Assembly (NCBI GenBank): GCA_037443035.1
Contig: JBBIPC010000007.1
Location: 64,001-128,000 of the forward strand
Direction: 5' to 3'
DNA: 64,000 bases
From: Chthonomonadales bacterium
GTDB taxonomy: Bacteria > Armatimonadota > Chthonomonadetes > Chthonomonadales > CAJBBX01
This document shows positions 11,132-44,884 of this stretch, piece after piece. The position numbers and the translations under genes were made by a program. Under the pieces are notes generated by a model. That model saw nothing but the letters and a program-made list of their open reading frames with translations. It had not been told where the DNA came from and ran no database searches. The stretch's first letter is position 1; each line of letters begins with the position of its first letter.

Positions 11132-13099
11132 ATGGAGATTGCCATGGCACTGCTTCTCGTCCCACTCGCGCTTGCAGCTGCGACTGCCACCGACCGACCT
11201 GCGCCACGCATCACCATGTACGTCTCGAAGCTCGGCGACAACACGACCGGTCGTACTTGGGCTACGGCGTTCCGAACCATCCAAGCCGCCCTGGATGCGG
11301 TGCCTTCCGGCGGAGGATGCCGCATCGTCGTCCGGCCCGACACCTACATGGAGGCGAACTTGGCGCCAGCCCACCCTGGCATTGAAGGCGCCTACAACGA
11401 AATCATCGGCGATACGGAAGGTACGTTCGGTGGCGGCCGGGCTGGCCACGTCGTCATCGACTCCAGCGACCCGGCCAGGGGCTTCAAGAGCTATGACTGG
11501 TGGGGCACCATCCGAGCCACGACCAAAGGTTGGTCCCCTGAACACACGGAGGAGACCTTCTCCGCCATCGGCTGGGACCGGTGGATCCTCCGCAATCTCT
11601 ACGCAACCGGCGGAGACGGTGGCCTCATGTTCGATTGCACCAACCGCGTGGAACCGTTCAGTGTCGTCGTCGAAGATTGCACGAGCATCGGTCGCGCTTT
11701 CGGAGGTGGTGTGGCGAGCTGTCTCTCGCGGCCGACCGAGCCCATCGTCTTTCGGCGATGCAAGCTGTGGGCAATGGACTGGTGGGGCGATACTGCTGCA
11801 GCCTACGTGCGCGTGGAAAACCCCGCCATGCCTTCCTCACCGGATGTTGTGTTCGAAGACTGCACCATGGTGAGTCCGCAATGCGCCCTCAAGGCCGGCA
11901 ACTACGGCTTCCACACGTACTCGCGCGTAAGCGTGCGCCGGTGCAAGCTCATCGCTCTCAACTTCTCCCAACCGGCTGGTACGCCGACCGACGGCATCAT
12001 CCAGAGCGTCCAGCATGGCAGGTATCTGCATGTCGAGCTGGAGGACAGCACGCTCATGGGCTACAAGGTTTTCGGCTCGGCAGTGGCCAAGGACTCCTCA
12101 GGCGACATCGGCTACACGGTGCGGGGGTCTGTCCGCGCCTATGTCCAGTTCCAGCAGGACGTGCCGGCAGGTATGCACCGGCTCGGTCACTGGCCAACGG
12201 AGATCTTCACCGATCTGACACCCCCATCCAAGCGAAGCTTCCCTGAGGCATCCTCCCGGGTTCCTCGTCCCTTGCGGGTCTCTCTGGTCCGCAAGGACAT
12301 GTGTGAGGTTTCGCCTTTCATCTGGAAAGGCAAGCTCTGCCTACTGGAGTGTCACCGCCCAGCGGCAGGGGGAAAGAGGGAGAACTACTACCTAGTGATA
12401 CGAGACGTGGACAGCGGCACGGAACTAGCCCGCTTCGGCGAGGGGTACAGCCTGGCTTCGGCCTTCGTGTGGCGAGGCAAGCTGCGGGTGTTCGCATCTC
12501 GGCTCGAGAACGACACCTGGAACGACGTGACCATGTTCACCACAGGCGACCTGCGCACCTGGACCCATCGAGTCGTCATACGCCAAGATCCCTCGGAGCA
12601 TCTCTTCAACAGCTCCGTGTGCCGTGGCGTAGACGGGTTTGTCATGGCCTACGAAAGCAACAACCCGCGATGGCCGCCATTCACCGTGCGGTTCGCACGC
12701 TCCCGGGACCTCGAAACATGGGAGACGATACCCGACGCTTTGCTCGGCACCGACCGATACGCCGCGTGCCCCTGCATCCGCCATGCAGACGGCTGGTACT
12801 ACGTTCTCTACCTGGAACATCGGACGCCACGCTGGTACTTCGAAACCTATATCGCCCGTTCCAGAGACCTCGTACACTGGGAGTCGAGTGCCGGTAACCC
12901 CGTACTGGAACCGCTGGAACTGGAGGACGGCATCAACGCCTCGGACCCGGACATCGTTGAGTTCCGCGGTCAGACGCTGTTGTATTACGCCATAGGAGAC
13001 CAACTTACGTGGATAAATATCGAACGGGCGGACTATCGCATGCCGCTAAGACGATGGCTCGCAAGCTGGTTCCGGCAAGGTGGCATCGCCACCAAGTAG
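11132..13099 (+). CDS. Secreted two-domain protein: pectin-lyase-like beta-helix plus GH43/32-like five-bladed beta-propeller
   Basis: Signal peptide; YVSKLGDN..G.TWATAFRTIQAALD (beta-helix N-cap); C-terminal repeats FARSRDLETWE, IARSRDLVHWE, NPVL, NASDPD. Confidence 0.6.
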   Translation: MEIAMALLLVPLALAAATATDRPAPRITMYVSKLGDNTTGRTWATAFRTIQAALDAVPSGGGCRIVVRPDTYMEANLAPAHPGIEGAYNEIIGDTEGTFGGGRAGHVVIDSSDPARGFKSYDWWGTIRATTKGWSPEHTEETFSAIGWDRWILRNLYATGGDGGLMFDCTNRVEPFSVVVEDCTSIGRAFGGGVASCLSRPTEPIVFRRCKLWAMDWWGDTAAAYVRVENPAMPSSPDVVFEDCTMVSPQCALKAGNYGFHTYSRVSVRRCKLIALNFSQPAGTPTDGIIQSVQHGRYLHVELEDSTLMGYKVFGSAVAKDSSGDIGYTVRGSVRAYVQFQQDVPAGMHRLGHWPTEIFTDLTPPSKRSFPEASSRVPRPLRVSLVRKDMCEVSPFIWKGKLCLLECHRPAAGGKRENYYLVIRDVDSGTELARFGEGYSLASAFVWRGKLRVFASRLENDTWNDVTMFTTGDLRTWTHRVVIRQDPSEHLFNSSVCRGVDGFVMAYESNNPRWPPFTVRFARSRDLETWETIPDALLGTDRYAACPCIRHADGWYYVLYLEHRTPRWYFETYIARSRDLVHWESSAGNPVLEPLELEDGINASDPDIVEFRGQTLLYYAIGDQLTWINIERADYRMPLRRWLASWFRQGGIATK

Positions 13100-13150
13100 G
13101 TCCGTCGGCCTTCTCCGGCGACAGATTCACGCTCCGGCCGCCTCTGGTGG

Positions 13151-13693
13151 TCAGAGTGTCTGCATCTTGCGATAGACGACCAGGGGCGGTTCTCCCTCCA
13201 GGTCCTCCGGATGGTAGCGCGGGAAGGGATACTCGAGTTGGCGCACTTCGACGGGAGACACCTTGGGGTCAACTAGTCCAAGGGCCACAGCGACGCCGTA
13301 GATGATGGCCTCCGGGCGCGGTGGACATCCCGGTATGTAGAAGTCCACCGGCACCACCTTCTCCACGGGTCCCAGCACGTTGTAGGTGTCGAACCAGACC
13401 CCGCCTCCGCATGCACATGAACCGATGGCGAAGACGAGCTTGGGCGCGGGCATGGCCTCGTACGCTCGGCGTAAGGCCTTGCTCGTGGATCTCATGGCCG
13501 GTCCTTGGCAGAGCATGACATCCGCATGGCGCGGCGATGCCACGAGCCGTATCCCGAAGCGCTCCGCATCGTAGTAGGGCGTCAAGACGTCGAGGACCTC
13601 GATATCGCAGCCGTTGCAACCGCCGCTGTTCGCATGGTAGACCCAGAGGGACCGCCCGAACAGTTTCTTGCAGAGCCCCGCCAGTACGCTCAT
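13151..13693 (-). CDS. hycG: Group 4 [NiFe]-hydrogenase small subunit (HycG/NuoB family)
   Basis: SGGCNGCDIE, SPRHADV, GSCACGGG, IPGCPPRPEAI. Start MSVLAG at 13693. Confidence 0.9.
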   Translation of the reverse strand: MSVLAGLCKKLFGRSLWVYHANSGGCNGCDIEVLDVLTPYYDAERFGIRLVASPRHADVMLCQGPAMRSTSKALRRAYEAMPAPKLVFAIGSCACGGGVWFDTYNVLGPVEKVVPVDFYIPGCPPRPEAIIYGVAVALGLVDPKVSPVEVRQLEYPFPRYHPEDLEGEPPLVVYRKMQTL

Positions 13694-13701
13694 CCTTGCC
13701 C

Positions 13702-14226
13702 TCAGTCCAACTCGATGGGTATATCCTCGACCGGTGGAAAGCCCGGTAGGAACGTCTCGGCCCGGAAGATCCACCGCTCGCTGGCTACGTCGTCGAAGCG
13801 ATACCCCTTCAGCTTCAGCGCCTCCAACGGTGATGGTTCGGGGAAACAACGGCCACAACGCTGGCATGCACCCATGAACAGCTCCAGCCTTTGCCTCAAG
13901 TCACCGATACGCGGCGTCGCCGTCTCGAAGTCCCGGCTCATGGTGATGGCCTTCTCCGGGCACACTTCGGCGCACCGACCGCAGTAAGTACATCTCCGAC
14001 CCAGGTATTGCAGTATCCGGATCTCCTGGCAAACGTCTACCACGAGAATCTCCCGGGCCGGGCAGTTGTTCGCACAGCCTGCACAACCGATGCAGCGGTT
14101 GGCATCGAAGATGGGGCGTCCCCGGAAACCCTCCGGCGTCGGTCGAGGAACGGCCGGATAGGGAAGCGTCACACGTCCCGCTTGCAGACAGATCACCGCT
14201 TCACGCACTTTGGAAAGTAGCGACAT
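13702..14226 (-). CDS. hycF: 4Fe-4S dicluster subunit (HycF/NuoI family)
   Basis: T..YP...FRGRP, CIGCAGCANNCP, CTYCGRCAEVCP, C-terminal CQRCG. Confidence 0.9.
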   Translation of the reverse strand: MSLLSKVREAVICLQAGRVTLPYPAVPRPTPEGFRGRPIFDANRCIGCAGCANNCPAREILVVDVCQEIRILQYLGRRCTYCGRCAEVCPEKAITMSRDFETATPRIGDLRQRLELFMGACQRCGRCFPEPSPLEALKLKGYRFDDVASERWIFRAETFLPGFPPVEDIPIELD

Positions 14227-14236
14227 TACCCGATCC

Positions 14237-15151
14237 TCAGTACCCCGCCACCGCCAGCACGAGCGCTGCCAGCGACGCCGCCAATAGCGCCGAATAGCGC
14301 CCGAGAGCCTGGTCAATCCGGATGCGGGCGTGCACGGTTGCCAGGAGCGCCACACCCAGGACAACAGCCAGCACTTTCAGCCAGTGGATGGGCCACGCGT
14401 ACACTGCAGCCAGGTCCGCCCCCCACGGCGCGAACAGCCCGATGAACAGGCTCGCATACACCACCAGCTTGGCCATGGCAGCGTAACGCAGGAGCGCCAG
14501 CTTCGGACCGGAGTACTCCGCCAGGGGACCTTCCATGATCTCTGTCTCAGCCTCGGTTGTGTCGAACGGCTGCTTCTGAGCGTAAGCCTGCAAGCCCAGC
14601 ACCATGACAATGAGCAACAGAATGCCGGACACCGTCACGCCTCCGCCCCCGTAGACGGACCCGTCCAGGAGTACCTGCAGACGGAGCGTGTGCGACTGGA
14701 CGGCACCTACAAGAACAGCAAACGCGAACAACGGCTCCAGCACAACGACAGCCATCATCTCGCGGCTGACTCCCACCATGGAGTACGGTGATCCCGCCGC
14801 GAGCCCTGCGAAGGCCGTGGTGGCTGCACAGAGCGTCAGAACGTAGAGCAGCAGGATGCCGTCGGCGTAGCGAGCCAGCGGCACTCCGAGACCCATGGGG
14901 GTCAAGCAGGCGGCTGTCAGGACGGACGCCAACGCAAGGATGGCCGAAGCTCGCTGCGCGGCCGGCACTTCGCCGCTCTCGATGTCCTCCTTCCCCAATA
15001 GCTTCAGGAGATCTACGTAGCTCTGCGTTATGGGCGGCCCCTGCCGCGAGTGGATGCGGGCGACCAACTTCCGCATGAGGCCGTCCAGCAGGGGGGCCAA
15101 CGCCATGACGGCCAGCACGTTGGCGAGGCTTCGTACGACCGCGTCTATCAT
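14237..15151 (-). CDS. hycD: Membrane subunit HycD/NuoH family
   Basis: RKLVARIHSRQGPP, D.LKLL.KE, PFD..EAETEIMEGPLAEYSG; multiple TM helices. Confidence 0.92.
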   Translation of the reverse strand: MIDAVVRSLANVLAVMALAPLLDGLMRKLVARIHSRQGPPITQSYVDLLKLLGKEDIESGEVPAAQRASAILALASVLTAACLTPMGLGVPLARYADGILLLYVLTLCAATTAFAGLAAGSPYSMVGVSREMMAVVVLEPLFAFAVLVGAVQSHTLRLQVLLDGSVYGGGGVTVSGILLLIVMVLGLQAYAQKQPFDTTEAETEIMEGPLAEYSGPKLALLRYAAMAKLVVYASLFIGLFAPWGADLAAVYAWPIHWLKVLAVVLGVALLATVHARIRIDQALGRYSALLAASLAALVLAVAGY

Positions 15152-16827
15152 CTTCGCCTCCCGCTGTCCCCAGCCGTCGCCAGTTCCTCAGGCGTCCAGA
15201 TACTCACATGGCCCGTTCGAAGATCTAGCGTCTCCATGCGGTCCGTACACGAGAAGCACGGGTCAATGCTCCCCAGCGAAATAGTCATGTCAGCCAGGCG
15301 CTGGTCCTTGATCATGGCAGGGACGCCCTGTAGATTCTGGTACGTGGGCGCACGTACGCGCCACCGCCGCGGCCGGTTGTTCTCGCCTGTGATGAGGAAG
15401 TGATGGCTCTCGCCTCGAGGCGCTTCCACCGACGAAAGGCCGAGGCGCCCTACTGGCAGCTCATCCGAGATAGGCGTCTGCAGCGGGCCAGGTTCTAGCC
15501 TGTCCAGACACTGCCGGATAATTCGGATGGACTGGAAGACCTCCTCTGTGCGCACGAGCACTCGGGACCAGACATCGCACCCATCGTGGGTTACCACCTC
15601 CATCGCGACCCGGTCGTAGGCCGCATACGGATGGTCACGCCGCACATCCCGCGGAACACCTGCCGCCCGGGCCACAGGTCCCACCAAGCCCATCTCCTTG
15701 ACCAACTGCCTATCGGCGATTCCCACACCGCGCGTGCGCGCCATGAGGTTCCTATCGCCCGACACCGCTCGGGCGGCAGCCGTCCATTCCTTCTCGAGGG
15801 TATCCAGCACTCCGCGCAGATCCTCGGCCACTTCCGCCGTAATGTCGTGGCGCACACCACCGACTAGACACAGACCGTAGGTCTTGCGGTTGCCGCAGAT
15901 CCGTTCAGCTATCCACATGATCGGTTCGCGGATCCGGAAGCTCTGCATGAACAGCGTGTCGAACCCGACGATGTGGCACGCCAATCCGACCCACAGCAGG
16001 TGGCTGTGGAGGCGCTCGATCTCCAACATGACCGTACGGATGTACTCAGCGCGCTCAGGTGGCCGAATGCCCGTTGCGCTCTCCACGGCCTGGCAGTACG
16101 CTACGCTGTGAACGCATCCACAGATCCCGCAGATCCGCTCGGCCAAGAACGGGATGTCGTCGTAGCCCATGACCGATTCGGCTAGTTTTTCGATTCCCCT
16201 ATGGACCATGAACCCCCGATATTCGCACCCCCGCACCACTTCGCCGTCCACATAGAGACGGAAGTGGGCTGGCTCGTCCAGCGTGGGATGGAACGGACCG
16301 AACGGTATGACCGTGCAGCCCTCAGGCGGATCTCCGAAGGGGTAGACGGCGTCTTCGTCGTAGTCGTCGGGCATGTGATTCCATGGGACATCCTTCCGCA
16401 AGGGGTGGACGCCCTCTGGCCATCCGTCCGGCAAGATCAGCCGTTTGGGATACGAGTGGCCGACTGGTTCGATGCCCACCAGATCCCTGAACTCCCGCTC
16501 CGCCCAACCCGCTGCCGGTACCACGGGCGTGATGCTGGGCACCGTAGGATCCGCCTCCGGCACAGCAGCGAGCACGCTGCACAGAATGTGATCGTCGTCG
16601 TAGGCGAAGTCATGGGCAACGAGAAACATGCCGGAATACGGCCGGTCATCGGCGCCGATGCTGATCACATAGCGAGCGTCCTGGTCGCGGAAGATGAACC
16701 GGCACACGTCACGCAGCAGCTCCCTGGGAACGTGAACGTAGAGGCGGTTGTCCGATGGAAGCTCGGCTCTAAGCGTGGCGGTGGGAAATCGCTCCCGCAA
16801 GGCGGCCAGACGTTCACGCGCTACCAT
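15148..16827 (-). CDS. hycE: Group 4a [NiFe]-hydrogenase large subunit (HycE, fused NuoC+NuoD-like)
   Basis: N-terminal NuoC-like ERE..DL.G and HPLRKD; Ni-binding ERICGICGCVH and DPCFSCTDR followed by a cleavable C-terminal tail. Confidence 0.93.
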   Translation of the reverse strand: MVARERLAALRERFPTATLRAELPSDNRLYVHVPRELLRDVCRFIFRDQDARYVISIGADDRPYSGMFLVAHDFAYDDDHILCSVLAAVPEADPTVPSITPVVPAAGWAEREFRDLVGIEPVGHSYPKRLILPDGWPEGVHPLRKDVPWNHMPDDYDEDAVYPFGDPPEGCTVIPFGPFHPTLDEPAHFRLYVDGEVVRGCEYRGFMVHRGIEKLAESVMGYDDIPFLAERICGICGCVHSVAYCQAVESATGIRPPERAEYIRTVMLEIERLHSHLLWVGLACHIVGFDTLFMQSFRIREPIMWIAERICGNRKTYGLCLVGGVRHDITAEVAEDLRGVLDTLEKEWTAAARAVSGDRNLMARTRGVGIADRQLVKEMGLVGPVARAAGVPRDVRRDHPYAAYDRVAMEVVTHDGCDVWSRVLVRTEEVFQSIRIIRQCLDRLEPGPLQTPISDELPVGRLGLSSVEAPRGESHHFLITGENNRPRRWRVRAPTYQNLQGVPAMIKDQRLADMTISLGSIDPCFSCTDRMETLDLRTGHVSIWTPEELATAGDSGRRR

Positions 16828-18736
16828 GGCGCTTCCCTTCTTTCGCGTCTCCCCACGTCCGCTTCAGCTCCGAGTAGAAGCCGTGAGCCGTGTAGCGAAT
16901 CTCGTCGCCTCCTGTCGCGTAGCCACACAACCAGGGCGCGTCGCGTCGTCGGTGCGCTCCGCCCAATCGGGAAACGAACCACGCCATTAGGGCCATCGCC
17001 GCCAGTACCCCAAGAATCGCCAGCGGTGCGTAGCCGGCGCCGTCGGCGGCCAGGCGGACGCCGAAGCCGGGGCCGCGGCGTATGGCTGTCACTGTGGCCA
17101 AGAGTCCTCCGACTCCCTGATGGGTAGCTGCGACGGCGTTGCCCGCCAGCCACACCAAGAGCGCTGGGAAGATCCCCGTGATGACGCACAGCGCCGCCAG
17201 AGCAAGTTGCGGAACCCGCATGAGCCACCCCACCTCGATCTTGCCACGCTCCCTGACTTGCGCTTCGACGACAGCGCTGCTCTGCCCAAGGAAACTTGTA
17301 CCGAAGAACTTGACGAACGATGCCAGGGTGAGAGCACTCGTCATGAGCGCCAGGGCCGCGCAAATGGCCATGTAGGGTGCTGCAGGACTTGCGCGGAGGG
17401 CCGCCACGTAGACCATCCACTTGCTGACGAAGCCGTTGAGCAACGGAAAGCCCGCAATGGCCATGCTGGCTGTCAGGGCGGTCCAGGCGGTCAATGGCAT
17501 GTGCCGCCACAATCCGCCCATGCGGTTGAGGTCCTGTGTACCGGTCGCGTCTAGCATGGATCCCGCATTGAGGAAAAGCAACGCTTTGAATACGCCGTGG
17601 TTGAACGAATGGAGCAGGGCAGCCATGAGCGCCAGGGCTGCGATCTGCCAAAGCTCCGGGTTGTCAGTCGCCACGAGCACCATGCACGTGCCGCAGGCCA
17701 ACAGAATGTAGCCGGCTTGGCCGATGCTGTGGAATGCCAGTAAGCGCTTCGTGTAGTCCTGCCGCAGGGCGGCGGTGGTGCCAGTTACCATGGTCACCGT
17801 GCCAATGACCGCGATGATTCCGCCCCATGTGCCGAAGCCGAAGTCGGTCCGAGCGCTCGACGGCACGAGGCACAGGAAGTAGCGAAGCAGACCGTACACA
17901 CCGGTCTTGATCATCACGCCTGAAAGCACCGCGCTGACCGGCGAAGGGGCCGCTGGATGGGCTTCCGGCAACCAGATGGCGCCGAATGGCCACATACCCG
18001 TCTTCACTCCGAAACCGACCAGGAACAGACCGAACGCCAGCGCCGCTAGCGCCGGTCGCTCGTTCAGCAGCATGGGTATGCCGGCGGTTACTGCGTCGAA
18101 ACTGTACTTCAGCTCGCCTGTGGAAGCGTGGCGGGCGGCAGCCTGCGCCAGTATCTCACCGCCGATCATCGTCGCGGCGCACCCTAGCTGCATCATGAGC
18201 AGGAAGCGGTTCGCGGCTCGGACGTTTTCTGGGCGACGGTACTCGAAGCGGATGAGGAGATACCCAGGGATGGTCATCATCTGCCAGAAGATGAAGAGGA
18301 ACCACATCATGTCCGTCGTGCTGACCAGCCCGTACATGGCCGCAACGAAGAACAACAGGTGGGGGTAATAGTGACCCACGCCGTAGGACGCGAACCGACC
18401 CATGTGGGCGATGGAATGGAGTGCCGCAGGTACGGCAATGACAACGGCGAGCACAAGGAAGATGGCGGTCAACCCGTCCACGCTCACGAAGAGGGAGAAT
18501 CCGAGCCGGGGGGCAGCTAGCAATCGCTCCGGCTTGCCAGATGGACCGTGGGCCAGGACTTCCATGGCGGCTGTCATCACCAGCGCGGCTGTTGCCAGCA
18601 CAATGAGGAACGCGAACCACCCCGCCACGACACGCCACCGGCTCAACGGAACGGAAATCAGCGATCCAACCACGGCGGCAACAATGGCGATGAGCACGAG
18701 ACGCTCAGGAGTCATGCCCCGCTCCTCCGCCGTCAC
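16814..18736 (-). CDS. hycC: Proton-conducting antiporter-like membrane subunit (HycC/HyfB, NuoL/MrpA family)
   Basis: K.G.WP...WLPEAHPAAPSPVSAVLSGVMIK, KRLLAFHSI, NHGVFKALLFL, GFPLLNGFVSKW, W.CGY. Start 18736 or 18715. Confidence 0.9.
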   Translation of the reverse strand: MTAEERGMTPERLVLIAIVAAVVGSLISVPLSRWRVVAGWFAFLIVLATAALVMTAAMEVLAHGPSGKPERLLAAPRLGFSLFVSVDGLTAIFLVLAVVIAVPAALHSIAHMGRFASYGVGHYYPHLLFFVAAMYGLVSTTDMMWFLFIFWQMMTIPGYLLIRFEYRRPENVRAANRFLLMMQLGCAATMIGGEILAQAAARHASTGELKYSFDAVTAGIPMLLNERPALAALAFGLFLVGFGVKTGMWPFGAIWLPEAHPAAPSPVSAVLSGVMIKTGVYGLLRYFLCLVPSSARTDFGFGTWGGIIAVIGTVTMVTGTTAALRQDYTKRLLAFHSIGQAGYILLACGTCMVLVATDNPELWQIAALALMAALLHSFNHGVFKALLFLNAGSMLDATGTQDLNRMGGLWRHMPLTAWTALTASMAIAGFPLLNGFVSKWMVYVAALRASPAAPYMAICAALALMTSALTLASFVKFFGTSFLGQSSAVVEAQVRERGKIEVGWLMRVPQLALAALCVITGIFPALLVWLAGNAVAATHQGVGGLLATVTAIRRGPGFGVRLAADGAGYAPLAILGVLAAMALMAWFVSRLGGAHRRRDAPWLCGYATGGDEIRYTAHGFYSELKRTWGDAKEGKRHGSA

Positions 18737-19205
18737 CTCGTCCCAAGAGCTGGATCAGGACTGGCGCCAAATGCTCCAGGGCAGTCTGCACTTCCTCGCT
18801 CAGGCAAGCTCCAGGCAGTGTCTCCGCAGGCTGGACGCCTAGAAGCCACACGCGGGACGTGGAGTATCGTTCCAGAGCCTCTGCCAGCACCCCTAACGCC
18901 ATGCGGTGCGTGGAGACTTGCGGGAAGCGAGATCGCATGCCCGCCGAATCGAATAGCATGACCGTTCCGGGCGCCTGGCCGGCCTCCACTGCATCCAGGA
19001 GGATCACGCTGTCCATTTCCCGAGCGCACATCAGGCAGCGCTCTGGCCAGAGTCCTCCGACCACCACGCGCGGCACGCCTGCATGTTTCAGCGTCTCCGC
19101 GAGCACGACGCCGAAGCCGTCATCGCCGAAGAGGGGATTGCCAAGCCCCAGGACAGCCGTCCGTCCTCTGCAGCAATCCGCCAGCGACGCCGCCAGCCCG
19201 TCCAT
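18705..19205 (-). CDS. hycI: Hydrogenase maturation protease (HycI family)
   Basis: VLGLGNPLFGDDGFG, LLDAV, STH, LLGVQP. Confidence 0.9.
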   Translation of the reverse strand: MDGLAASLADCCRGRTAVLGLGNPLFGDDGFGVVLAETLKHAGVPRVVVGGLWPERCLMCAREMDSVILLDAVEAGQAPGTVMLFDSAGMRSRFPQVSTHRMALGVLAEALERYSTSRVWLLGVQPAETLPGACLSEEVQTALEHLAPVLIQLLGRGDGGGAGHDS

Positions 19206-20068
19206 CAGATATCCTCTCCCAACATGCGCAACTGCTCGTAGGTGAAGACGGGGCCGTCCACACAGACATAGGCAACGCCGATGCAGCAGTGGCCGCACTT
19301 GCCTACGCCGCACTTCATGTACCGCTCCATGGTGGAGACGATCCTATCCTCCCGGTACCCCATGGCGAGCAGATCCTTGATGACGAACCGGAACATGACA
19401 GGCGGACCGCAAACGAAGGCAATGCTGTTGTCCACAGCCACTCGAACATCCGGCCGCTTGAACAGGCTTCCAACGACACCCACCGGACCGCTCCAACTCT
19501 CATCGCCCCGGTCCACGGTCAGGTGGCACTCGACCCCTCCCTGCTCGGCCCAACCGCGCATCTCCGTTTGGTACATGAGTTCCGCTGGCGTTCGTGCGCC
19601 GTAGAACACCTGAATCGTGCCGTACTGCTCGCGCCGATGCATGGCGTAGACAATGCACGATCGGAGCGGGATCATGCCGATGCCGCCCGCCACGAAAACG
19701 AGATTCATGCCGGCGTATTCGTCCATGGGAAAACCGTTGCCATAGGGACCACGAACGCCGAAGCAATCGCCGGGCTGGAGGCTGTGCAGAGCCGATGTAC
19801 AGCTGCCCACGCGCCTGACCGTGAAGAAGCGCTCCTTCTCCGTAGGGCTGGGTGGGAGCGATAGCGGGAACTCGCCCGCGCCGATGATCGAGACCTGGGC
19901 GAACTGCCCTGGCCGGAACCGGGAGAAAGCAACATCATCCGCCGGGTCCACGAAACGCCAGTAGAAACTGCGCACCTCGCGGATCTCGTCCTGAACCCGC
20001 TCGAGAACCGCCACACGGGGGATGTAGATGTTCGTCTCGTCAGGCTGCTGCATGAGCCTCTTCCCCAA
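19205..20068 (-). CDS. FAD/NAD(P)-binding oxidoreductase with 2Fe-2S cluster (AsrB / sulfhydrogenase gamma / PyrK family)
   Basis: PGQF, RGPYGNGF, AGGIGMIP, CGPPVM, ERYMKCGVGKCGHC...CVDGPVF. Start TTG 20068 or ATG 20053. Confidence 0.9.
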   Translation of the reverse strand: MGKRLMQQPDETNIYIPRVAVLERVQDEIREVRSFYWRFVDPADDVAFSRFRPGQFAQVSIIGAGEFPLSLPPSPTEKERFFTVRRVGSCTSALHSLQPGDCFGVRGPYGNGFPMDEYAGMNLVFVAGGIGMIPLRSCIVYAMHRREQYGTIQVFYGARTPAELMYQTEMRGWAEQGGVECHLTVDRGDESWSGPVGVVGSLFKRPDVRVAVDNSIAFVCGPPVMFRFVIKDLLAMGYREDRIVSTMERYMKCGVGKCGHCCIGVAYVCVDGPVFTYEQLRMLGEDI

Positions 20069-21122
20069 CGGAGCCTCGCCGGATCATCTCCACGACCGTC
20101 GGCATGCCAATCTCGCCATGACAGACAGCTGCGCACCGTCCGCATCCCACGCATGCAACGCTCAGCTCCCGTTGCACGAAGTAGTGGGAGAGCTTGCGGA
20201 AGAAACGCCTGTTGCGCCGATCATGGACAGCTTTCCTGGGATTGAACCCGCCTGCCATCCGCGTGAACCCCGCCAGTGCGCAGGAGTCCCACACTCGGAC
20301 ACGTTCGTAGGTGTCTGGTCCTGTTAGACGGTCCGTTACCGTGAAGCACGTGCATGCGGGACAGACGAACGTGCATCCACCGCATTCCAGACACCGATTG
20401 CCGATCTCCTCCCACGTCTCCTCGCTTACCTTTCCCGCCGAAACGCCCCGCACAGCGCCAGCGAACCAGCTTGTTCGGTGGAAGAAGCTCCTCCGCGCAT
20501 TGGCAAGCGCGAGCCGGCGCGCAGCTACGTCCTCCGGCGTAGCCTTGCGGAAGATCGTCGAAGCGAAGAGAGCTTCGCCTGCCGGAGTACCTGCGACTGC
20601 CAGGTACCGGTCGCCAAGAGCGACCAGTTGCAGATCGAAACCACTTCTTGCCGCAGGTCCCGTGTCCGTACAGACGCAGAAGCAGTCTGGCCCGATGTCC
20701 ACGCCGGGCACGGTACAGGCGACGTTCACAAGGAACAGCCCCTGCCGCAGACGGTGGTAGTAGATGTCCCGATACTCCCGATCCAGATAGAACCTATCGA
20801 GGTGTCCGATGCCAGCCACGTCACACGATCGAATGCCAAACACCGCCAGTCGCTGCTCGGCCACCGTCGGTTCGATGCGCATGCCCTCCGACGTTCGTTG
20901 CAATGTCATGATCCGCTGGATGTGAGGTAGGACGAACCGCTTGGGCGGATAGAGCGGGTTGGGCAGGTGGAGTGTCGCCGCATGGCGGTTGGCCTCGTTG
21001 ACGACATCGAAGCATGTATCCGATCCGTGGATGCGGAACGGCGCCACCACCGCGTACCCCTTCTCGCGGAGCAGATCGATGATGCAGAGCACGTCTTCGG
21101 CCGCAATGATGCGCGCTTTCAC
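20040..21122 (-). CDS. 4Fe-4S protein (AsrA / sulfhydrogenase beta family)
   Basis: PPKRF, GIRSCD, CFC, CLECGGCTFVCPACTCF, RVWDSC, CVGCGRCAAVC. The GTG start overlaps the upstream stop (GTGA). Confidence 0.9.
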   Translation of the reverse strand: MKARIIAAEDVLCIIDLLREKGYAVVAPFRIHGSDTCFDVVNEANRHAATLHLPNPLYPPKRFVLPHIQRIMTLQRTSEGMRIEPTVAEQRLAVFGIRSCDVAGIGHLDRFYLDREYRDIYYHRLRQGLFLVNVACTVPGVDIGPDCFCVCTDTGPAARSGFDLQLVALGDRYLAVAGTPAGEALFASTIFRKATPEDVAARRLALANARRSFFHRTSWFAGAVRGVSAGKVSEETWEEIGNRCLECGGCTFVCPACTCFTVTDRLTGPDTYERVRVWDSCALAGFTRMAGGFNPRKAVHDRRNRRFFRKLSHYFVQRELSVACVGCGRCAAVCHGEIGMPTVVEMIRRGSVGEEAHAAA

Positions 21123-23146
21123 GGGCGAATCCTCTCGATCCGCACAGGCACATACGGGGACCCGTTCGCTGCATGGCCCCGGATGGCCTGATCCACGTTC
21201 TTGACGAAGAAGGGAGCGAACACTGCACCCCGTCGCACCTCGTCCGTCACACGAGCCGCGATCTCCACACAACCTCCCGCCGAGCAGACACGAATAGTTT
21301 CGCCGTCCCGCACCGACAGTTCTCGCGCGTCCTCCGTGTTCACCTCCACGAACCCCTCGGGATAGTCGAGCAGGAGGATGCGGTACTCACGCTTCAGCGT
21401 CTCGCTGTGCTGGATCAGCACGTTCTTGTGCCAGTAGTAGTTGGAATAGCCGAACACCAGGGTCAGCGGGAACTCGGCGCTGCGTGGCACAGGGACGGGA
21501 GGCCGCACAGGCTGCAGACGGAATGGATGTTGCTCGCCAGAACCGTCTGCGAACAGCCTGGGCGTTCCGACGGGCCGCTGCCAGGTGCACGGCCATTGCA
21601 CCCCGAAGTCCCTCCGGAGATTGTCGTAGCTGGCCGCTTCGTAGAACGGAACAGCTTGGCCGATCTCTGCCATGACATCCGCCGGACCATCGTATTCCCA
21701 CTCTGCGCCGAGGGCGCGTGCCACTCGGACAATGTGCCTCCAGGCTGGCTCCGTCGCACCAGGCGCCGCTGCAACCTTCTCTGCAACCTGGATGCGCCGG
21801 TCCGTGCTGGTGAAGGTGACGGTCTCCTCACCGAAGGCAGTGGTGGGCAGGATGACGTCAGCGAAGGCGGCTGTTTCCGTCATGAACAGGTGCTGGACCA
21901 CGATGAACTCGCATTGCTGGAGAGCCCAGGCCGCGTCGCCGAAGAAGGCCGTGCTGGCGGGATCGTAACGACCCAGCCACAGTCCCCGAATCGCACCGTT
22001 GCCCAGACCGCCCAGTACTTCGCGCGCCGACAGCCCGACCTCCCGCGGAAGCTCCGCCTGCCATAGACTGCCCAGCCGGGCCGACGCCTCTTCATCGGTG
22101 ACGCGCCTATAGCCCGGCAGCATGTCGGGCAGCATGCCCATGTCGCAGACGCCTTGGAGGTTGTTATGTTCGGTCAGCGCATAGACACCCGCGCCTGGAC
22201 GGCCGATCTGCCCGGTCAGCAGAGCGAGGTTGACAGCGGCCCGAATGGTTTCCTCGTGGCGCGCCTCCAATCCCGTCGAATAGACCAGGGAGGCTGCCTG
22301 CGCCTCGGCGTACAGCGTAGCCGCTTCCTCCAGCGCTTCTGGCGGTACGCCACATTCCTCGGCAGCCGTCAATAAGTCGAAGTGCTCGGTGGCGGAGAGG
22401 AATGCGTCGAACCCACCGCACCGGCTCTTCAGGAAGCTGCGGTCCTCCAGCCCACGGTCGATAATGACCCTGGCCATGGCACCGTACAGCGTGGCTTCCG
22501 TCCCAGGGCGGATCTGGAGGAAAACGTCGGCGTGGCCCGCCAGACGATGCCGGCGAGAATCCACCACAATGAGTCGTGCACCGTCCAGCTTGGCGCGTAG
22601 GACAATGCCTGCCACCGTCGGCAACTGCCGCGCCAGGTCCACCCCGTCCACGAGAATCACGTCGCTCAGACTCAAGTCGCCAATCGGGTTCGTCGTGGCT
22701 GGTACGCCGAGCATGTCCAGGAGCACGTTGATGGAGTTGTGGACATACACTCCGGTCCCGTGGTCCACATTGTTGGTGCCCACCACGGCGCGCGCCAGCT
22801 TCTGGAGCAGATATGCTTCCTCGTTGGAACATCGGGGCGAGTCGAGGAATGCCACCGCCTGCGGACCATGCTGCATCACGATCGCTCGAAGCCGCTCGGC
22901 GATCAGCTCCACCGCCTCGTCCCACGTCGCTTCCTCGAAGCCCCTCGAACGCCGGATGAGAGGGTGGAGCAACCTGTCGGGCGAACCGGAGACCTCGTGA
23001 ACATGCCAGCCACGCAGGCAGATCCTTCCCCGGTTCGTGGGATGGGACAAGCTGGGATAGGCACCGCTTACGCGCCCTTCGGCGGTCTCGAGATACAGAC
23101 CGCATCCCACCCCGCAGAAGGTGCATGTGGTAAGTTGGTGCGGCAT
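21119..23146 (-). CDS. FdhF-like molybdopterin oxidoreductase family protein, apparently catalytically degenerate
   Basis: Collinear with the formate dehydrogenase alpha subunit (CTFCGVGC...C 4Fe-4S site, NEEAYLLQKLARAVVGTNNVD, NNLQGVCDMG, ADVILP, QWPC), but the Cys/Sec-His and Arg active-site motifs are replaced. Confidence 0.85.
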   Translation of the reverse strand: MPHQLTTCTFCGVGCGLYLETAEGRVSGAYPSLSHPTNRGRICLRGWHVHEVSGSPDRLLHPLIRRSRGFEEATWDEAVELIAERLRAIVMQHGPQAVAFLDSPRCSNEEAYLLQKLARAVVGTNNVDHGTGVYVHNSINVLLDMLGVPATTNPIGDLSLSDVILVDGVDLARQLPTVAGIVLRAKLDGARLIVVDSRRHRLAGHADVFLQIRPGTEATLYGAMARVIIDRGLEDRSFLKSRCGGFDAFLSATEHFDLLTAAEECGVPPEALEEAATLYAEAQAASLVYSTGLEARHEETIRAAVNLALLTGQIGRPGAGVYALTEHNNLQGVCDMGMLPDMLPGYRRVTDEEASARLGSLWQAELPREVGLSAREVLGGLGNGAIRGLWLGRYDPASTAFFGDAAWALQQCEFIVVQHLFMTETAAFADVILPTTAFGEETVTFTSTDRRIQVAEKVAAAPGATEPAWRHIVRVARALGAEWEYDGPADVMAEIGQAVPFYEAASYDNLRRDFGVQWPCTWQRPVGTPRLFADGSGEQHPFRLQPVRPPVPVPRSAEFPLTLVFGYSNYYWHKNVLIQHSETLKREYRILLLDYPEGFVEVNTEDARELSVRDGETIRVCSAGGCVEIAARVTDEVRRGAVFAPFFVKNVDQAIRGHAANGSPYVPVRIERIRP

Positions 23147-23182
23147 GGCGCCCGCCTTCGCGATCGTGGCCCCGAAGCCTCT

Positions 23183-23668
23183 CTACCAGGAGCGCACGTG
23201 CCGCTCGACAAGCTTCTGACGGACCGCCTGGAGCCGTTGCTCCAACAGTGTCGCGAACCGCTGCAGGAGCATGTAGCCTAGGCTTGGGTCCTTCTCGCAC
23301 CGCTCCCGCAGAGCAGGACCGTCGAGGACCAATAGGCGTGTCCTGCGCGCCGCCCGAGCGTCCAGACGCCAACGGTACGGCGGCACGAGCACCGACCAAC
23401 CGAAGGCATCGCCATCCTCTAGTTCCTGCACGGTCGTGGGCCCGTACTGCAGGTTGAAAGCCTCCAGTACAACTGCGCCTTCGAGGATCAGGTAGAACCT
23501 GTCCGCCTGCTCCCCCTCCCGAAAGATCACTTGACCTGCGTCCAGCGTCGTTTCGGTCGACAGCGACAATAGCGCCTGAGCACAGTCCGCTGGCAGATCG
23601 GCGAATAGCGGGTGGCCAGCCAGGACTTCGCCAGAAGACCGCGTCGCAGGTGTGTGTTGCACTGCCAT
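23183..23668 (-). CDS. Stand-alone cyclic nucleotide-binding domain protein (no HTH)
   Basis: HPLF..L, GQVIFREGEQADRFYLILEG.V, GD.FGWS; 161 aa. RBS AGGAGG before ATG 23668. Confidence 0.88.
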   Translation of the reverse strand: MAVQHTPATRSSGEVLAGHPLFADLPADCAQALLSLSTETTLDAGQVIFREGEQADRFYLILEGAVVLEAFNLQYGPTTVQELEDGDAFGWSVLVPPYRWRLDARAARRTRLLVLDGPALRERCEKDPSLGYMLLQRFATLLEQRLQAVRQKLVERHVRSW

Positions 23669-23756
23669 TGCACAACCTCCTACTGCTCGGCCAGTCTTGC
23701 ACCGTGCCCTTATGTTATCACGCTGCAGCCGAGAATACAAGAGGTTCGACGGCAGA

Positions 23757-23774
23757 TTGTGGGTTTTTTCTCAG
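23757..23774. promoter_or_regulatory. CRP/FNR- or Rex-like palindrome (proximal) upstream of the hydrogenase operon
   Basis: TTGTGGG-TTTT-TTCTCAG (TGTGG-N6-TCTCA). Centred about 40 nt upstream of a putative start site inferred from a minus-strand -10-like TATTCT at 23732-23737. Confidence 0.35.
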
Positions 23775-23831
23775 AATGTTGCCGCATGAGATGAGCCGAG
23801 ACGCATGTATCGAAGCGGTCGGACACATTAC

Positions 23832-23849
23832 TCGTGAACATAGTCACAG
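23832..23849. promoter_or_regulatory. CRP- or Rex-like palindrome (distal) upstream of the hydrogenase operon
   Basis: TCGTGAA-CATA-GTCACAG: 9/10 match to TGTGA-N6-TCACA and 11/14 to Rex TTGTGAA-N4-TTCACAA. Confidence 0.5.
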
Positions 23850-23901
23850 ATAGCAGCGACAGCAGTTCGCCACCCACTTACTGCTGGGACGCTCGCGAAA
23901 G

Positions 23902-40522: not shown

Positions 40523-40613
40523 ACCTTTCAACCTCCTCATGGGCCAATACTTCTGCCCAAAGGCTTATTCTCGACCTTCCCGTTATGAATCTACGCCGCT
40601 TGCCATCGTACGG

Positions 40614-41507: not shown

Positions 41508-41513
41508 CGCCTG

Positions 41514-42497: not shown

Positions 42498-42513
42498 GTC
42501 ACATGCGCTCCCT

Positions 42514-43329: not shown

Positions 43330-43347
43330 CGTGCTGGTTCCCCGTCC

Positions 43348-44622: not shown

Positions 44623-44692
44623 ACTGGGACCCCCCGATTGAATCGTAAGACGACACAGGCACCTGCCCGCACGGGGCAAGCTCGCCCGCTAG

Positions 44693-44721
44693 ATTGTAGC
44701 AACTTTCCCTGCGAGTGTCAA
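44693..44721 (-). promoter_or_regulatory. Sigma70-type promoter for the pilM operon
   Basis: TTGACA-17 nt-TACAAT with extended -10 TGn (TTGACActcgcagggaaagtTGcTACAAT), about 70 nt upstream of pilM. Confidence 0.8.
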
Positions 44722-44884
44722 GCGTGCGGCATCCTTTCGTGCTTACGCCGTGCCGCTGCCGCTCTTTCGACGCCCACAGCCGCAGCAGGGTTACCCTTCG
44801 CCACCGCTTCCGCCGGTTCCTGCAATGCCTGCAGGGCGCCCAGCTGGTTCCTGCACGTGCGCCCGGACGCCACAGTCCCCCGGC

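What the first reader, a model, noticed from the sequence alone, without database searches (positions are those of the whole stretch)
13151..23668. Candidate new energy-converting complex: group 4a hydrogenase wired to an AsrAB-type NAD(P)H module through a pseudo-FDH
Seen: ten tightly coupled genes, several with overlapping start/stop codons: cNMP protein, FdhF-like, AsrA-like, AsrB-like, hycI, hycC, hycE, hycD, hycF, hycG. HycE has intact Ni-binding CxxC pairs and a cleavable tail. There is no HycB, fdhD, formate channel, Moco gene, AsrC or group 3b large/small subunit in the window. Known: formate hydrogenlyase uses FdhF and HycB as electron input; AsrA/B homologues are the beta/gamma NAD(P)H module of group 3b hydrogenases; complex I NuoG is a cofactor-less FDH-like scaffold linking a flavoprotein to the core. 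Inference: a membrane-bound NAD(P)H:H+ (or H2:NAD(P)+) oxidoreductase coupled to ion translocation that independently arrived at a complex-I-like input module, and not a formate hydrogenlyase as automated annotation would probably call it. I cannot confirm from the sequence alone that it is undescribed.
Basis: partly seen in the sequence, partly recalled or inferred. Interest (0 to 1): 0.88.

Follow-up and report, generated by a model that had tools for sequence, protein, structure and literature searches.

The report
NAD(P)H-linked membrane hydrogenase, dead formate dehydrogenase
A conserved nine-gene operon encodes a membrane-bound nickel-iron hydrogenase whose formate-dehydrogenase-like subunit has lost its catalytic residues, in a genome with no molybdenum-cofactor genes, so it likely trades electrons with NAD(P)H rather than formate and is probably mislabelled as formate hydrogenlyase.

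Summary
Ten translationally coupled minus-strand genes lie at 23668-13151. Nine of them (FdhF-like, sulfhydrogenase beta-like, gamma-like, HycI, HycC, HycE, HycD, HycF, HycG) recur in this order in 38 fully covered loci from at least six phyla. The cNMP gene is not conserved.

HycE keeps both nickel-binding CxxC pairs. The FdhF-like subunit keeps its [4Fe-4S] cysteines and the FDH fold. It has Tyr/Phe for Sec/Cys, no His and no Arg, and its pterin-binding motifs are replaced.

New here: the window's 100%-complete genome lacks MoaA, MoaC, MoeA and FdhD. So do three related carriers, and 11 of 40 other carriers lack both MoaC and MoeA. The subunit is therefore very probably cofactor-free. FocA, pyruvate formate-lyase and a close HycB were not found either.

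The best reading is a reversible, likely ion-coupled NAD(P)H:H+ oxidoreductase. This is inferred, not shown.

It is not undescribed. Related clusters were noted in print in 2019 and 2026, with no biochemistry, and this scan flagged the same operon three times on other DNA.

Whether electrons pass through the pseudo-FDH is open, because the complex predictor was unavailable. HycF carries a family-specific cysteine quartet that may replace HycB.

The parts
23183..23668 (-). cNMP-binding-domain protein (161 aa from ATG 23668, preceded by a GGAGG Shine-Dalgarno motif). It is adjacent to the conserved operon but not part of it.
   Evidence: Pfam PF00027, 1.5e-13. Start chosen. No homologue in any of 80 related loci. 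A 46% identical paralogue lies at G000:C7:21830-22321.
21119..23146 (-). FdhF-like pseudo-formate dehydrogenase (675 aa). The [4Fe-4S] cysteines C8, C11, C15 and C43 are kept. Tyr134 replaces Sec/Cys, Val135 replaces His, Thr325 replaces Arg, and the pterin-binding motifs are replaced.
   Evidence: Pfam PF04879, PF00384 and PF01568. TIGR01591 scores 546 bits against a cut-off of 666. PDB alignments to 7qv7_S and 9t1s_L. Family columns. AF2 model pLDDT 75.7; best fold match 1fdi, E 2.3e-51.
20040..21122 (-). Sulfhydrogenase-beta/AsrA-like FeS subunit (360 aa) with 16 invariant cysteines, predicted to hold at least three FeS clusters.
   Evidence: PF17179, 1.1e-27. P. furiosus SHI beta 9nez_B, 6.9e-39. 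Invariant cysteines C100, C136, C147, C149, C151, C244, C247, C250, C254, C257, C259, C281, C324, C327, C330 and C334 in 37 sequences (A2). Single copy in the genome.
19205..20053 (-). Sulfhydrogenase-gamma/AsrB-like flavoprotein (282 aa) with FAD, an NAD(P)-binding GGIGxxP loop and a [2Fe-2S] site.
   Evidence: PF00175 and PF10418. SHI gamma 9nez_C, 2.3e-60. Invariant C248, C253, C256, C257, C264 and G124; G123, G126 and P129 at 90% or more (A4, 37 sequences).
18705..19205 (-). HycI-type maturation endopeptidase (166 aa).
   Evidence: PF01750. TIGR00072 scores 97.5 bits against a cut-off of 47.45.
16814..18715 (-). HycC/HyfB-like antiporter-type membrane subunit (633 aa), the only one in the operon.
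   Evidence: PF00361, 1.2e-47. Best NCBIfam match is hydrogenase 4 subunit B, 378 bits, below the cut-off of 667.
15148..16827 (-). HycE-type [NiFe] large subunit, a NuoC-NuoD fusion of 559 aa, with intact nickel-ligand cysteines and a cleavable C-terminal tail.
   Evidence: PF00329, PF00374 and PF00346. 7z0s_E, 1.7e-135. 41.7% identity to E. coli HycE over 554 aa. C233, C236, C524 and C527 invariant in 36 of 36.
14237..15151 (-). HycD/NuoH-like membrane subunit (304 aa).
   Evidence: PF00146, 2.2e-49.
13702..14226 (-). HycF/NuoI-like subunit (174 aa) with two [4Fe-4S] motifs and a family-specific cysteine quartet (C66 plus C121xxC124xxC127).
   Evidence: Fer4 families. 7z0s_F, 8.2e-20, with alignment. 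Invariant and nearly invariant cysteines in 37 sequences (A1).
13151..13693 (-). HycG/NuoB-like small subunit (180 aa).
   Evidence: PF01058, 1.1e-31. PRK06411 scores 138 bits against a cut-off of 116. 49% identity to E. coli HycG.

Best explanation
The nine conserved genes encode a membrane-bound HycE-type [NiFe]-hydrogenase that likely exchanges electrons with NAD(P)(H) rather than formate, through a sulfhydrogenase beta/gamma-like flavin/FeS module, while its formate-dehydrogenase-like subunit is very probably a cofactor-free relic that keeps only a [4Fe-4S] cluster.

Shown directly:
- The gene set and its strict conservation.
- Intact NiFe ligands together with HycI.
- Loss of the FDH catalytic residues and pterin motifs across the family.
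- Absence of Moco-biosynthesis genes, FdhD, a canonical FDH, FocA and PFL from this genome.

Inferred path: NAD(P)H, then FAD and [2Fe-2S] in gamma, then the FeS clusters of beta, then HycF (two clusters, perhaps entered through a third site formed by C66 and C121xxC124xxC127), then HycG, then NiFe in HycE. There protons would be reduced to H2. HycD and HycC would couple turnover to ion movement, as in formate hydrogenlyase and complex I.

I take beta to sit where HycB sits in E. coli FHL. The pseudo-FDH would keep FdhF's place as a scaffold, with its cluster either on a side branch or in line.

The reaction should be reversible. I favour H2 evolution from NAD(P)H during anoxic fermentation at low H2 partial pressure (about 60:40 over H2 uptake).
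For: Conservation:
- The beta gene follows the FdhF-like gene in 61 of 61 loci that have downstream DNA. All nine genes are in order in 38 loci from Verrucomicrobiota, Acidobacteriota, Nitrospirota, Methylomirabilota, Omnitrophota and Vulcanimicrobiota, plus the window's own phylum.
- In a sample of 301 genomes of the window's phylum, the FdhF-like orthologue (57-100% identity) and the beta orthologue (64-100%) occur in exactly the same 4 genomes and lie adjacent. The next-best hits are at most 39% and 43%.
- No gene outside the nine recurs in more than 6 of 61 loci.

Real hydrogenase:
- HycE matches E. coli HycE at 1.7e-135.
- The nickel-ligand cysteines are invariant in 36 of 36.
- HycI is in the operon, and HypD lies elsewhere in the genome.

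NAD(P)H module:
- Beta matches SHI beta at 6.9e-39 and gamma matches SHI gamma at 2.3e-60.
- The NAD(P) loop, the [2Fe-2S] cysteines and the beta cysteines are conserved.
- Beta is single-copy in the genome, so it is not borrowed from a group 3b enzyme.

Dead FDH:
- Position 134 is Tyr in 35 and Phe in 2 of 37. Position 135 is never His. Position 325 is never Arg.
- Of 197 columns invariant in 12 true FDHs, 103 are changed. These include GSNT to GVDL, GENP to RYDP, EKDGT to EEtVT, the TTGR..H.HT motif, and MGITQH to TGLEAR.
- The family is separated from true FDHs by a branch of 0.99 + 1.17 substitutions per site, with 100% SH-aLRT on a quick tree.
- G000 (100% complete) has no MoaC, MoeA_N, MoaA C-domain or FdhD. 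The same holds for MoaA C-domain, MoaC and MoeA_N in G154, G255 and G298, which are 96-100% complete.
- In those four genomes the only PF00384 proteins are this subunit and, in three of them, one other protein. In G000 that other protein lies in the nuo cluster and is NuoG-like.
- 11 of 40 other carrier genomes lack both MoaC and MoeA_N.

No formate route in G000:
- One FdhF-like gene only.
- No FocA.
- Three glycyl-radical enzymes, none near the PFL cut-off. The best is hydroxyproline dehydratase at 1278 bits.
- E. coli HycB finds only 48.5- and 39.7-bit matches.
- No ORF has four CxxCxxCxxxC motifs.

HycF remodelling: C121xxC124xxC127 aligns with E. coli C117xxC120. In E. coli that site binds a metal ion facing FdhF and HycB (PMC9474812, passages). 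C66 is at least 90% conserved and the other three cysteines are invariant.
Against: - No activity, expression or binding data exist. No RNA run held the sequence.
- NAD(P)H to H2 is uphill under standard conditions, so it needs low H2 or energy input.
- 28 of 40 other carrier genomes do have MoaC and MoeA, so a pterin cofactor cannot be excluded in those from gene content alone. Completeness of the genomes reached through loci is unknown, so some of the 11 absences could be assembly gaps.
- The former active-site region is strongly conserved (GxGVY, LxE[HQ]NNLQG). That fits a retained function as well as a structural role.
- The subunit is as conserved (55-65% identity) as the beta subunit.
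- NADH versus NADPH was not resolved.
- All NCBIfam equivalog scores for beta and gamma are far below their cut-offs, so these are homologues, not members, of the characterised subunits.
- A distantly related ferredoxin encoded elsewhere could still join the complex (weak HycB-like hits).
Confidence: 0.6

Rival explanations
1. A three-armed electron-bifurcating or confurcating enzyme. The FeS network would branch to HycE (H+/H2), to gamma (NADP+/NADPH) and to the Fdh-like subunit. The Fdh-like subunit would still turn over an as-yet-unidentified third substrate. This was proposed for related group 4b clusters.
For: PMC13582414, section 16 (read whole): about half of the Fdh subunits in group 4b clusters lack Cys/Sec and co-occur with SHI-beta/gamma homologues. 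AlphaFold models there give three branches. The former active-site segment is highly conserved in this family. A third couple would also solve the uphill step from NAD(P)H to H2.
Against: The pterin-binding motifs are replaced family-wide. Four carriers at 96-100% completeness have no MoaA, MoaC or MoeA, and their only other PF00384 protein is NuoG-like where it was examined. 11 of 40 further carriers lack both MoaC and MoeA. Without Mo/W-bisPGD no known chemistry of this fold remains. The window's cluster also lacks the separate ferredoxin subunits that form the hub in the published models.
Confidence: 0.1
2. A ferredoxin-assisted confurcating hydrogenase. Reduced ferredoxin would dock on HycF or on the pseudo-FDH, and together with NAD(P)H would drive H2 formation. 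The pseudo-FDH would act as docking platform, and the membrane arm would add or recover energy.
For: Other group 4 enzymes (Ech, Mbh) take ferredoxin at the NuoI-like subunit; this is established knowledge, recalled. HycF has an extra conserved cysteine quartet at its periphery. A low-potential co-donor would remove the thermodynamic problem.
Against: No ferredoxin gene is conserved beside the operon. Nothing in the sequences points to a ferredoxin site. The flavoprotein is of the plain FNR/PyrK type with one FAD, as in the non-bifurcating sulfhydrogenase I.
Confidence: 0.12
3. The same complex working physiologically as an uptake enzyme. H2 would reduce NAD(P)+, and the roughly 18 kJ/mol released would drive ion export. 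That would give soil and peat bacteria an energy-conserving route from H2 to NAD(P)H.
For: The reaction is exergonic in this direction under standard conditions (textbook potentials, recalled). Many carriers are Acidobacteriota, Verrucomicrobiota, Nitrospirota and NC10 from soils, bogs and groundwater (record titles). The genome has other hydrogenases that could evolve H2.
Against: Characterised HycE-type enzymes are biased towards H2 production (PMC9474812 abstract and passages). At environmental H2 levels of a few Pa the driving force vanishes.
Confidence: 0.15
4. A genuine formate hydrogenlyase, as routine annotation calls it. The FdhF-like subunit would oxidise formate and pass electrons to HycE.
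For: The overall fold and best matches are FDHs. Sources label relatives 'formate dehydrogenase'. An acidobacterial MAG study names an 'fdhF, hyf operon' formate hydrogenlyase (PMC6018796, passage).
Against: Sec/Cys, His and Arg are all absent in 37 of 37 sequences. TIGR01591 scores below its cut-off. G000 has no Moco genes, FdhD, FocA, PFL or HycB.
Confidence: 0.03

Closest known systems
E. coli formate hydrogenlyase-1 (FdhF-HycBCDEFG, group 4a [NiFe]-hydrogenase; PDB 7Z0S/7Z0T)
   Same: The HycC, D, E, F, G and I homologues match. HycE is 41.7% identical over its full length with the same NiFe motifs and cleavable tail. It is the same NuoC-NuoD fusion. There is one antiporter-like subunit. 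An FdhF-fold subunit with one [4Fe-4S] is present.
   Different: There is no HycB and no HycH. The gene order is C-E-D-F-G, not C-D-E-F-G. The FdhF-like subunit lacks Sec/Cys, His, Arg and the pterin motifs. A beta/gamma flavin/FeS module is added. The HycF metal site is CxxCxxC plus a remote Cys, instead of CxxC...CPxC.
Group 4b clusters with Cys/Sec-less Fdh plus SHI-beta/gamma homologues (PMC13582414, 2026, in silico only)
   Same: These show the same idea: an Fdh-like protein without the Mo ligand, co-occurring with sulfhydrogenase beta/gamma homologues beside a group 4 hydrogenase. I found such long-form relatives in the window's own phylum (L100-L102). They run FdhF-like (35-36% identity), beta, gamma, HycI, two or three antiporter-like genes, HycE (49-55%), HycD, HycF, HycG. 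Their FDH residues are also lost.
   Different: The window's family has a single antiporter-like subunit and no separate ferredoxin or HyfE-like subunits. Its pseudo-FDH is only about 35% identical to those of the long form. The paper proposes a third substrate, whereas the Moco-gene absences found here argue against one. I saw section 16 and passages, not that paper's supplementary figures.
'Enigmatic' Mrp-Mbh-type group 4 hydrogenase region of Saganbacteria RX5A (PMC6349859, 2019)
   Same: It has an unclassifiable molybdopterin oxidoreductase with a single FeS domain, next to asrA-like and asrB-like genes and a membrane hydrogenase. The authors proposed it as an 'oxidoreductase module' (main-text passage and Supplementary Note passages).
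   Different: That region has a cooF-like ferredoxin and Mrp antiporter-like subunits. Its function was left open. No analysis of catalytic residues or Moco genes appears in the passages I saw.
Pyrococcus furiosus soluble sulfhydrogenase I (group 3b, alpha-beta-gamma-delta; PDB 9NEZ/9NF0)
   Same: Beta and gamma are clear homologues (6.9e-39, 2.3e-60). The cysteine patterns, FAD fold and NAD(P) loop are shared.
   Different: There are no group 3b alpha or delta subunits here. The module is attached to a membrane-bound group 4 enzyme. NCBIfam equivalog scores are far below their cut-offs (149 vs 690, 214 vs 650).
Complex I N-module with NuoG (NDUFS1)
   Same: It works alike. A flavoprotein feeds NAD(P)H electrons through FeS clusters to NuoI/NuoB/NuoD homologues, and an FDH-fold domain without pterin serves as scaffold with an off- or near-pathway [4Fe-4S] (PMC9474812 passages).
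   Different: The flavoprotein is of the FNR/PyrK type (FAD), not NuoF (FMN). There are no NuoE/NuoF homologues. The acceptor is H+ at a NiFe site, not quinone. The genome has its own separate complex I with NuoG. The origin is independent.

Membership tests
Formate hydrogenlyase (FHL-1/FHL-2, Hyc/Hyf) | HycE/HyfG-type large subunit with both NiFe CxxC pairs and a HycI-cleaved tail | tested here: met
   7z0s_E at 1.7e-135. C233, C236, C524 and C527 invariant in 36 of 36. HycI is in the operon.
Formate hydrogenlyase (FHL-1/FHL-2, Hyc/Hyf) | Catalytic FdhF with Sec/Cys140, His141, Arg333 and Mo-bisPGD | tested here: not met
   Tyr/Phe, non-His and non-Arg in 37 of 37. Pterin motifs replaced. No MoaA, MoaC, MoeA or FdhD in G000.
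Formate hydrogenlyase (FHL-1/FHL-2, Hyc/Hyf) | HycB/HyfA four-cluster ferredoxin linking FdhF to HycF | tested here: not met
   No such gene among the nine genes recovered in order in 38 loci. E. coli HycB finds only 48.5- and 39.7-bit hits in G000. No ORF has four CxxCxxCxxxC motifs.
Formate hydrogenlyase (FHL-1/FHL-2, Hyc/Hyf) | Membrane arm of HycD (NuoH-like) plus at least one antiporter-like subunit | tested here: met
   PF00146 and PF00361.
Metal-dependent formate dehydrogenase alpha (TIGR01591) | Score above the curated cut-off | tested here: not met
   546.1 bits against a cut-off of 666.25. The same result in the genome search.
Metal-dependent formate dehydrogenase alpha (TIGR01591) | N-terminal [4Fe-4S] cysteines and the four-domain fold | tested here: met
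   C8, C11, C15 and C43 in 37 of 37. Foldseek match to 1fdi, E 2.3e-51, TM 0.77.
Group 3b sulfhydrogenase (SHI/SHII) | Beta and gamma subunits at equivalog level, together with group 3b alpha and delta subunits | tested here: not met
   ShyB 149.5 vs 690, HydB 148.4 vs 750, ShyC 213.7 vs 600, HydG 213.5 vs 650. The neighbours are Hyc genes, not 3b alpha/delta.
Anaerobic sulfite reductase AsrABC | AsrA and AsrB above cut-off, with the siroheme subunit AsrC | tested here: not met
   AsrA 129.8 vs 323.15 and AsrB 187.4 vs 288.6. No third asr-like gene among the nine genes recovered in 38 loci. AsrC was not searched genome-wide.
Published group 4b Fdh-like/SHI-beta-gamma clusters (PMC13582414) | Fdh without the Cys/Sec ligand, co-occurring with SHI-beta/gamma homologues | tested here: met
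Published group 4b Fdh-like/SHI-beta-gamma clusters (PMC13582414) | Multiple antiporter subunits, HyfE-like subunit and separate ferredoxin subunits | tested here: not met
   Only one PF00361 gene and no extra ferredoxin gene among the nine. The long-form relatives L101 and L102 do have 3-4 antiporter-like genes.
HydDB group 4a | Classifier assignment of the large subunit | not testable with these tools
   HydDB is not on hand. HycE is 41.7% identical to E. coli HycE but 49-55% identical to the long-form relatives, so 4a versus 4b is open.

The most novel reading that the evidence does not exclude
A second, independent invention of a complex-I-like NAD(P)H input. A formate hydrogenlyase ancestor swapped HycB for a sulfhydrogenase beta/gamma module and gave HycF a new FeS entry site. 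It fossilised its formate dehydrogenase into a cofactor-free scaffold, the same fate as NuoG. The result would be the first NAD(P)H-coupled, ion-translocating group 4 hydrogenase. It is spread through soil, peat and groundwater phyla, where it is counted today as formate hydrogenlyase.
Probability: 0.45. Interest if true: 0.8.

Novelty: new variant of a known kind. Interest (0 to 1): 0.62.

Why it matters
If the reading holds, no characterised group 4 hydrogenase uses NAD(P)(H) (my knowledge, and no such report turned up in the searches named below). The complex would link the main cellular redox carrier directly to H2 and to the membrane potential.

It occurs in abundant soil, peat and groundwater lineages: Verrucomicrobiota, Acidobacteriota, Nitrospirota and NC10. 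There, genome surveys book it as formate hydrogenlyase, so H2 and formate budgets inferred from metagenomes may be wrong.

It also offers a natural parallel to how complex I may have acquired NuoG: an FDH that lost its cofactor and stayed on as a scaffold. The Moco-free genomes found here make that point testable.

Tried and rejected
- Complex prediction of beta (A2) with HycF (A1). The tool's queue was full, and two early retries were not sent on (76, 82). Nothing was folded, so which subunit docks on HycF is untested.
- Expression. The look-up of sequencing runs listed no RNA holder.
- Promoter and terminator scan of 12900-24100. It found 2 and 6 sites, at the level expected from shuffles.
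- Natural fusions as evidence of contacts. An apparent FdhF-like/beta fusion in L026 was a script artefact; a TGA stop is present. The 'longer' search with beta gave 19 proteins: ten beta fusions with histidine-kinase/receiver domains, seven beta-gamma fusions, one beta-gamma-small-subunit fusion, and P0124. P0124 (914 aa, beta plus PF00384) reads as a frameshifted read-through of a family member, so it is not a true fusion.
- Conserved neighbours such as hyp genes, regulators or ferredoxins. None recurs in more than 6 of 61 loci.
- The PFL-like hits in G000 looked like a formate source. None reaches the PFL cut-off, and the best is hydroxyproline dehydratase.
- Group 4f/Ehf was considered and dropped. 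The papers read describe 4f/Ehr with NuoE/F-like partners or without NiFe ligands, unlike this cluster.
- Searches for a biochemical report found only genomic mentions. The Structure 2025 paper on SHI is not held.
- The careful tree search did not finish, so the quick tree is reported.

Full report
**What is there**

They are:
- a cNMP-binding protein;
- an FdhF-like protein with the Fe4S4, Molybdopterin and Molydop_binding domains;
- a Fer4_22 protein (AsrA/sulfhydrogenase-beta type);
- an FAD/NAD/[2Fe-2S] protein (AsrB/sulfhydrogenase-gamma type);
- HycI;
- an antiporter-like HycC;
- a NuoC-NuoD fused HycE;
- HycD, HycF and HycG.

With the most plausible starts, six of the eight junctions within the conserved operon overlap by 1 to about 14 nt. 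The other two are gaps of about 10 and 8 nt. This fits translational coupling. The flanks are housekeeping genes. No hyp, focA, hycB, fdhD or Moco gene is in the window.

**Conservation**

The FdhF-like protein belongs to a large family. The 120 best 90%-identity clusters are 61-99% identical and 672-698 aa long. Their sources label them 'YjgC', 'formate dehydrogenase' or 'molybdopterin-dependent oxidoreductase'.

In one-genome-per-species contigs, 65 loci hold a 55-65% identical copy and 15 hold true FDHs at 36-41%. In 61 of the 65 the beta gene follows directly. In the other four the contig ends. All nine genes appear in the same order in 38 loci. None of the 15 true-FDH loci has any partner gene.

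The exceptions are:
- L019 and L061: no HycD/F/G found after HycE.
- L049: an insertion before HycC.
- L067: no HycC hit.
- L047: no HycI hit.

The cNMP gene is never conserved, and no other neighbour recurs in more than 6 of 61 loci. In 301 genomes sampled from the window's phylum, the FdhF-like and beta orthologues occur in the same four genomes, adjacent to each other. A clean gap separates them from the next-best hits (57% vs 39%, and 64% vs 43%). The carriers named in record titles are Verrucomicrobiota, Acidobacteriota, Nitrospirota, NC10/Methylomirabilota, Omnitrophota and Vulcanimicrobiota. The truncated loci add a Geobacteraceae and a Planctomycetaceae MAG.

**The hydrogenase is real**

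HycE aligns end to end with E. coli HycE (7z0s_E, 1.7e-135; 41.7% identity). RICGICGCVH and DPCFSCTDR are present, and the four cysteines are invariant in 36 of 36 orthologues. A tail follows the Arg where HycI cleaves in E. coli. That cleavage site is recalled, not tested here. HypD is present elsewhere in the genome.

**The formate dehydrogenase is dead**

In PDB alignments and in family alignments, four changes stand out:
- The Sec/Cys position is Tyr in 35 and Phe in 2 of 37.
- The His position is Cys, Ser, Arg, Ala or Val.
- The Arg of LRGQNN is Thr, Ser, Ala, Asn or Cys.
- The Lys next to the fourth cluster cysteine is Arg in 37 of 37.

The four [4Fe-4S] cysteines are invariant. Of 197 columns invariant in 12 true FDHs, 103 are changed in the family. 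The changes include GSNT, GENP, EKDGT, TTGR..H.HT and MGITQH. I recognise these segments as pterin-binding from memory of the enzyme family; their role was not tested here. That outgroup is narrow (mostly Thermodesulfobacteriota), so the count of 197 is generous. The overall fold is kept: AF2 pLDDT 75.7, best match E. coli FdhF 1fdi at E 2.3e-51. A quick tree separates the family from true FDHs with 100% SH-aLRT and a long stem.

**New evidence: no cofactor to bind**

The window's genome is 100% complete by marker genes, at 3.76 Mb in 61 contigs. It has no MoaC, MoeA_N, MoaA C-domain or FdhD. In each search the controls rang in 8-11 of 14 reference genomes.

The three other carriers in the same phylum (96-100% complete) also lack MoaA, MoaC and MoeA. 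In these four genomes the only proteins with the Molybdopterin domain are the FdhF-like subunit and, in three of them, one other. In G000 that other protein sits in the nuo cluster.

Among 40 other carriers, 12 lack MoaC, 12 lack MoeA_N and 11 lack both. The remaining 28 have them, and the completeness of the 37 genomes reached through loci is unknown. A subunit kept under purifying selection in organisms that cannot make Moco must work without it.

**No formate route**

G000 has a single FdhF-like gene and no FocA. Its three glycyl-radical enzymes score 92-132 bits against a PFL cut-off of 994, and the best is a hydroxyproline dehydratase. There is no close HycB and no four-motif ferredoxin ORF.

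**The NAD(P)H module**

Beta and gamma match P. furiosus sulfhydrogenase I beta and gamma (9nez_B at 6.9e-39, 9nez_C at 2.3e-60). The cysteine patterns, the GGIGxxP loop and the [2Fe-2S] motif are conserved across 37 sequences. Beta is single-copy in the genome, and gamma has only a 30% identical paralogue. The module therefore belongs to this operon. NADH versus NADPH was not resolved.

**How it likely works (inferred)**

Electrons would pass from NAD(P)H through FAD and [2Fe-2S] in gamma and the clusters of beta to HycF, then HycG, then the NiFe site. HycD and HycC would couple turnover to ion movement.

In E. coli FHL, HycB docks on HycF and HycE. FdhF touches both HycB and a basic patch of HycF next to a mononuclear Cys4 site, C117xxC120...C155PxC158 (PMC9474812, passages). 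Here the aligned segment is C121xxC124xxC127. All three cysteines are invariant, C66 is at least 90% conserved, and the second E. coli pair is absent.

A CxxCxxC motif plus a remote Cys is the usual signature of a cubane cluster. I therefore propose, as a hypothesis, a third HycF cluster that takes over the link HycB used to provide. The simplest model puts beta in HycB's place and leaves the pseudo-FDH where FdhF sat. Whether its cluster lies in line or on a side branch is open, because the complex predictor never ran.

**Relatives and print**

The window's phylum also holds a long form of the cluster (L100-L102). It has the same order, but with two to four antiporter-like genes and a differently decayed pseudo-FDH. 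Its HycF keeps CxxCxxC but not C66. This matches the group 4b clusters of PMC13582414 (2026, section 16 read whole). Those authors noted Cys/Sec-less Fdh with SHI-beta/gamma homologues and proposed bifurcation with an unknown third substrate.

PMC6349859 (2019; passages of the main text and supplementary file 11) described an 'enigmatic' Saganbacteria region with the same ingredients plus cooF. PMC6018796 (passage) calls an acidobacterial 'fdhF, hyf operon' a formate hydrogenlyase. I could not check whether that is this same cluster.

None of the eight literature searches turned up a purification or an assay. The scan itself flagged the same operon on three other genomes with the same reading. 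Those notes agree with mine but are not independent evidence.

**Verdict**

The pseudo-FDH and non-FHL readings are well supported, and are strengthened here by the Moco-gene absences. NAD(P)H coupling and ion translocation remain inferences. The wiring through the pseudo-FDH is untested. The arrangement is a new variant of a known kind: it has been noticed in print but never characterised.

Noticed in passing
window 23183-23668 (-); G000:C7:21830-22321: The cNMP-binding protein upstream of the operon has no DNA-binding domain. It has a 46% identical paralogue about 42 kb before the window's start on the same contig (roughly 65 kb from this gene). It is absent from all related loci, so it may be a lineage-specific regulator.
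   Followed up: partly
L100 (G031:C133), L101 (G133:C1), L102 (G097:C110): This is a long-form cluster in the window's phylum. It has a different pseudo-FDH (35-36% identity, Cys/His also lost), then beta, gamma, HycI, 2-4 antiporter-like genes, HycE, HycD, HycF and HycG. Its HycF keeps CxxCxxC but lacks C66.
   Followed up: partly
proteins P0121-P0123 and P0125-P0131: Sulfhydrogenase-beta-like FeS domains (PF17179) are fused to histidine-kinase and receiver domains in proteins of 744-863 aa. These may be FeS-based redox sensor kinases.
   Followed up: no
G000:C2:~214000-219100; C2:~39800-52000; C4:125354-126619; C9:11443-12669: The same genome holds a small Ech/Mbh-like group 4 hydrogenase (377-aa large subunit), a second nuo-like gene set besides complex I on C1, and two further NiFe large subunits. 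One of these lies near HypD.
   Followed up: no
G000:C13:3363-5882 (L103:1333-3852): A glycyl-radical enzyme scores above the cut-off for trans-4-hydroxy-L-proline dehydratase (1278 vs 1100 bits). Two more unassigned glycyl-radical enzymes lie on C29 and C24.
   Followed up: partly
window 44885-63517 (-): Four consecutive very large ORFs (2797, 1688, 1007 and 687 aa) lie downstream of a pilM/secretin gene group. They were not examined.
   Followed up: no
window 29663-31591 (-): A 642-aa protein made up entirely of DUF6785 plus DUF6784 (E 1e-140).
   Followed up: no
G255:C25:70335-71405: The beta orthologue lies in an open frame of 650 aa. That is about the summed length of beta and gamma, so it may be a natural beta-gamma fusion in this carrier.
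   Followed up: no
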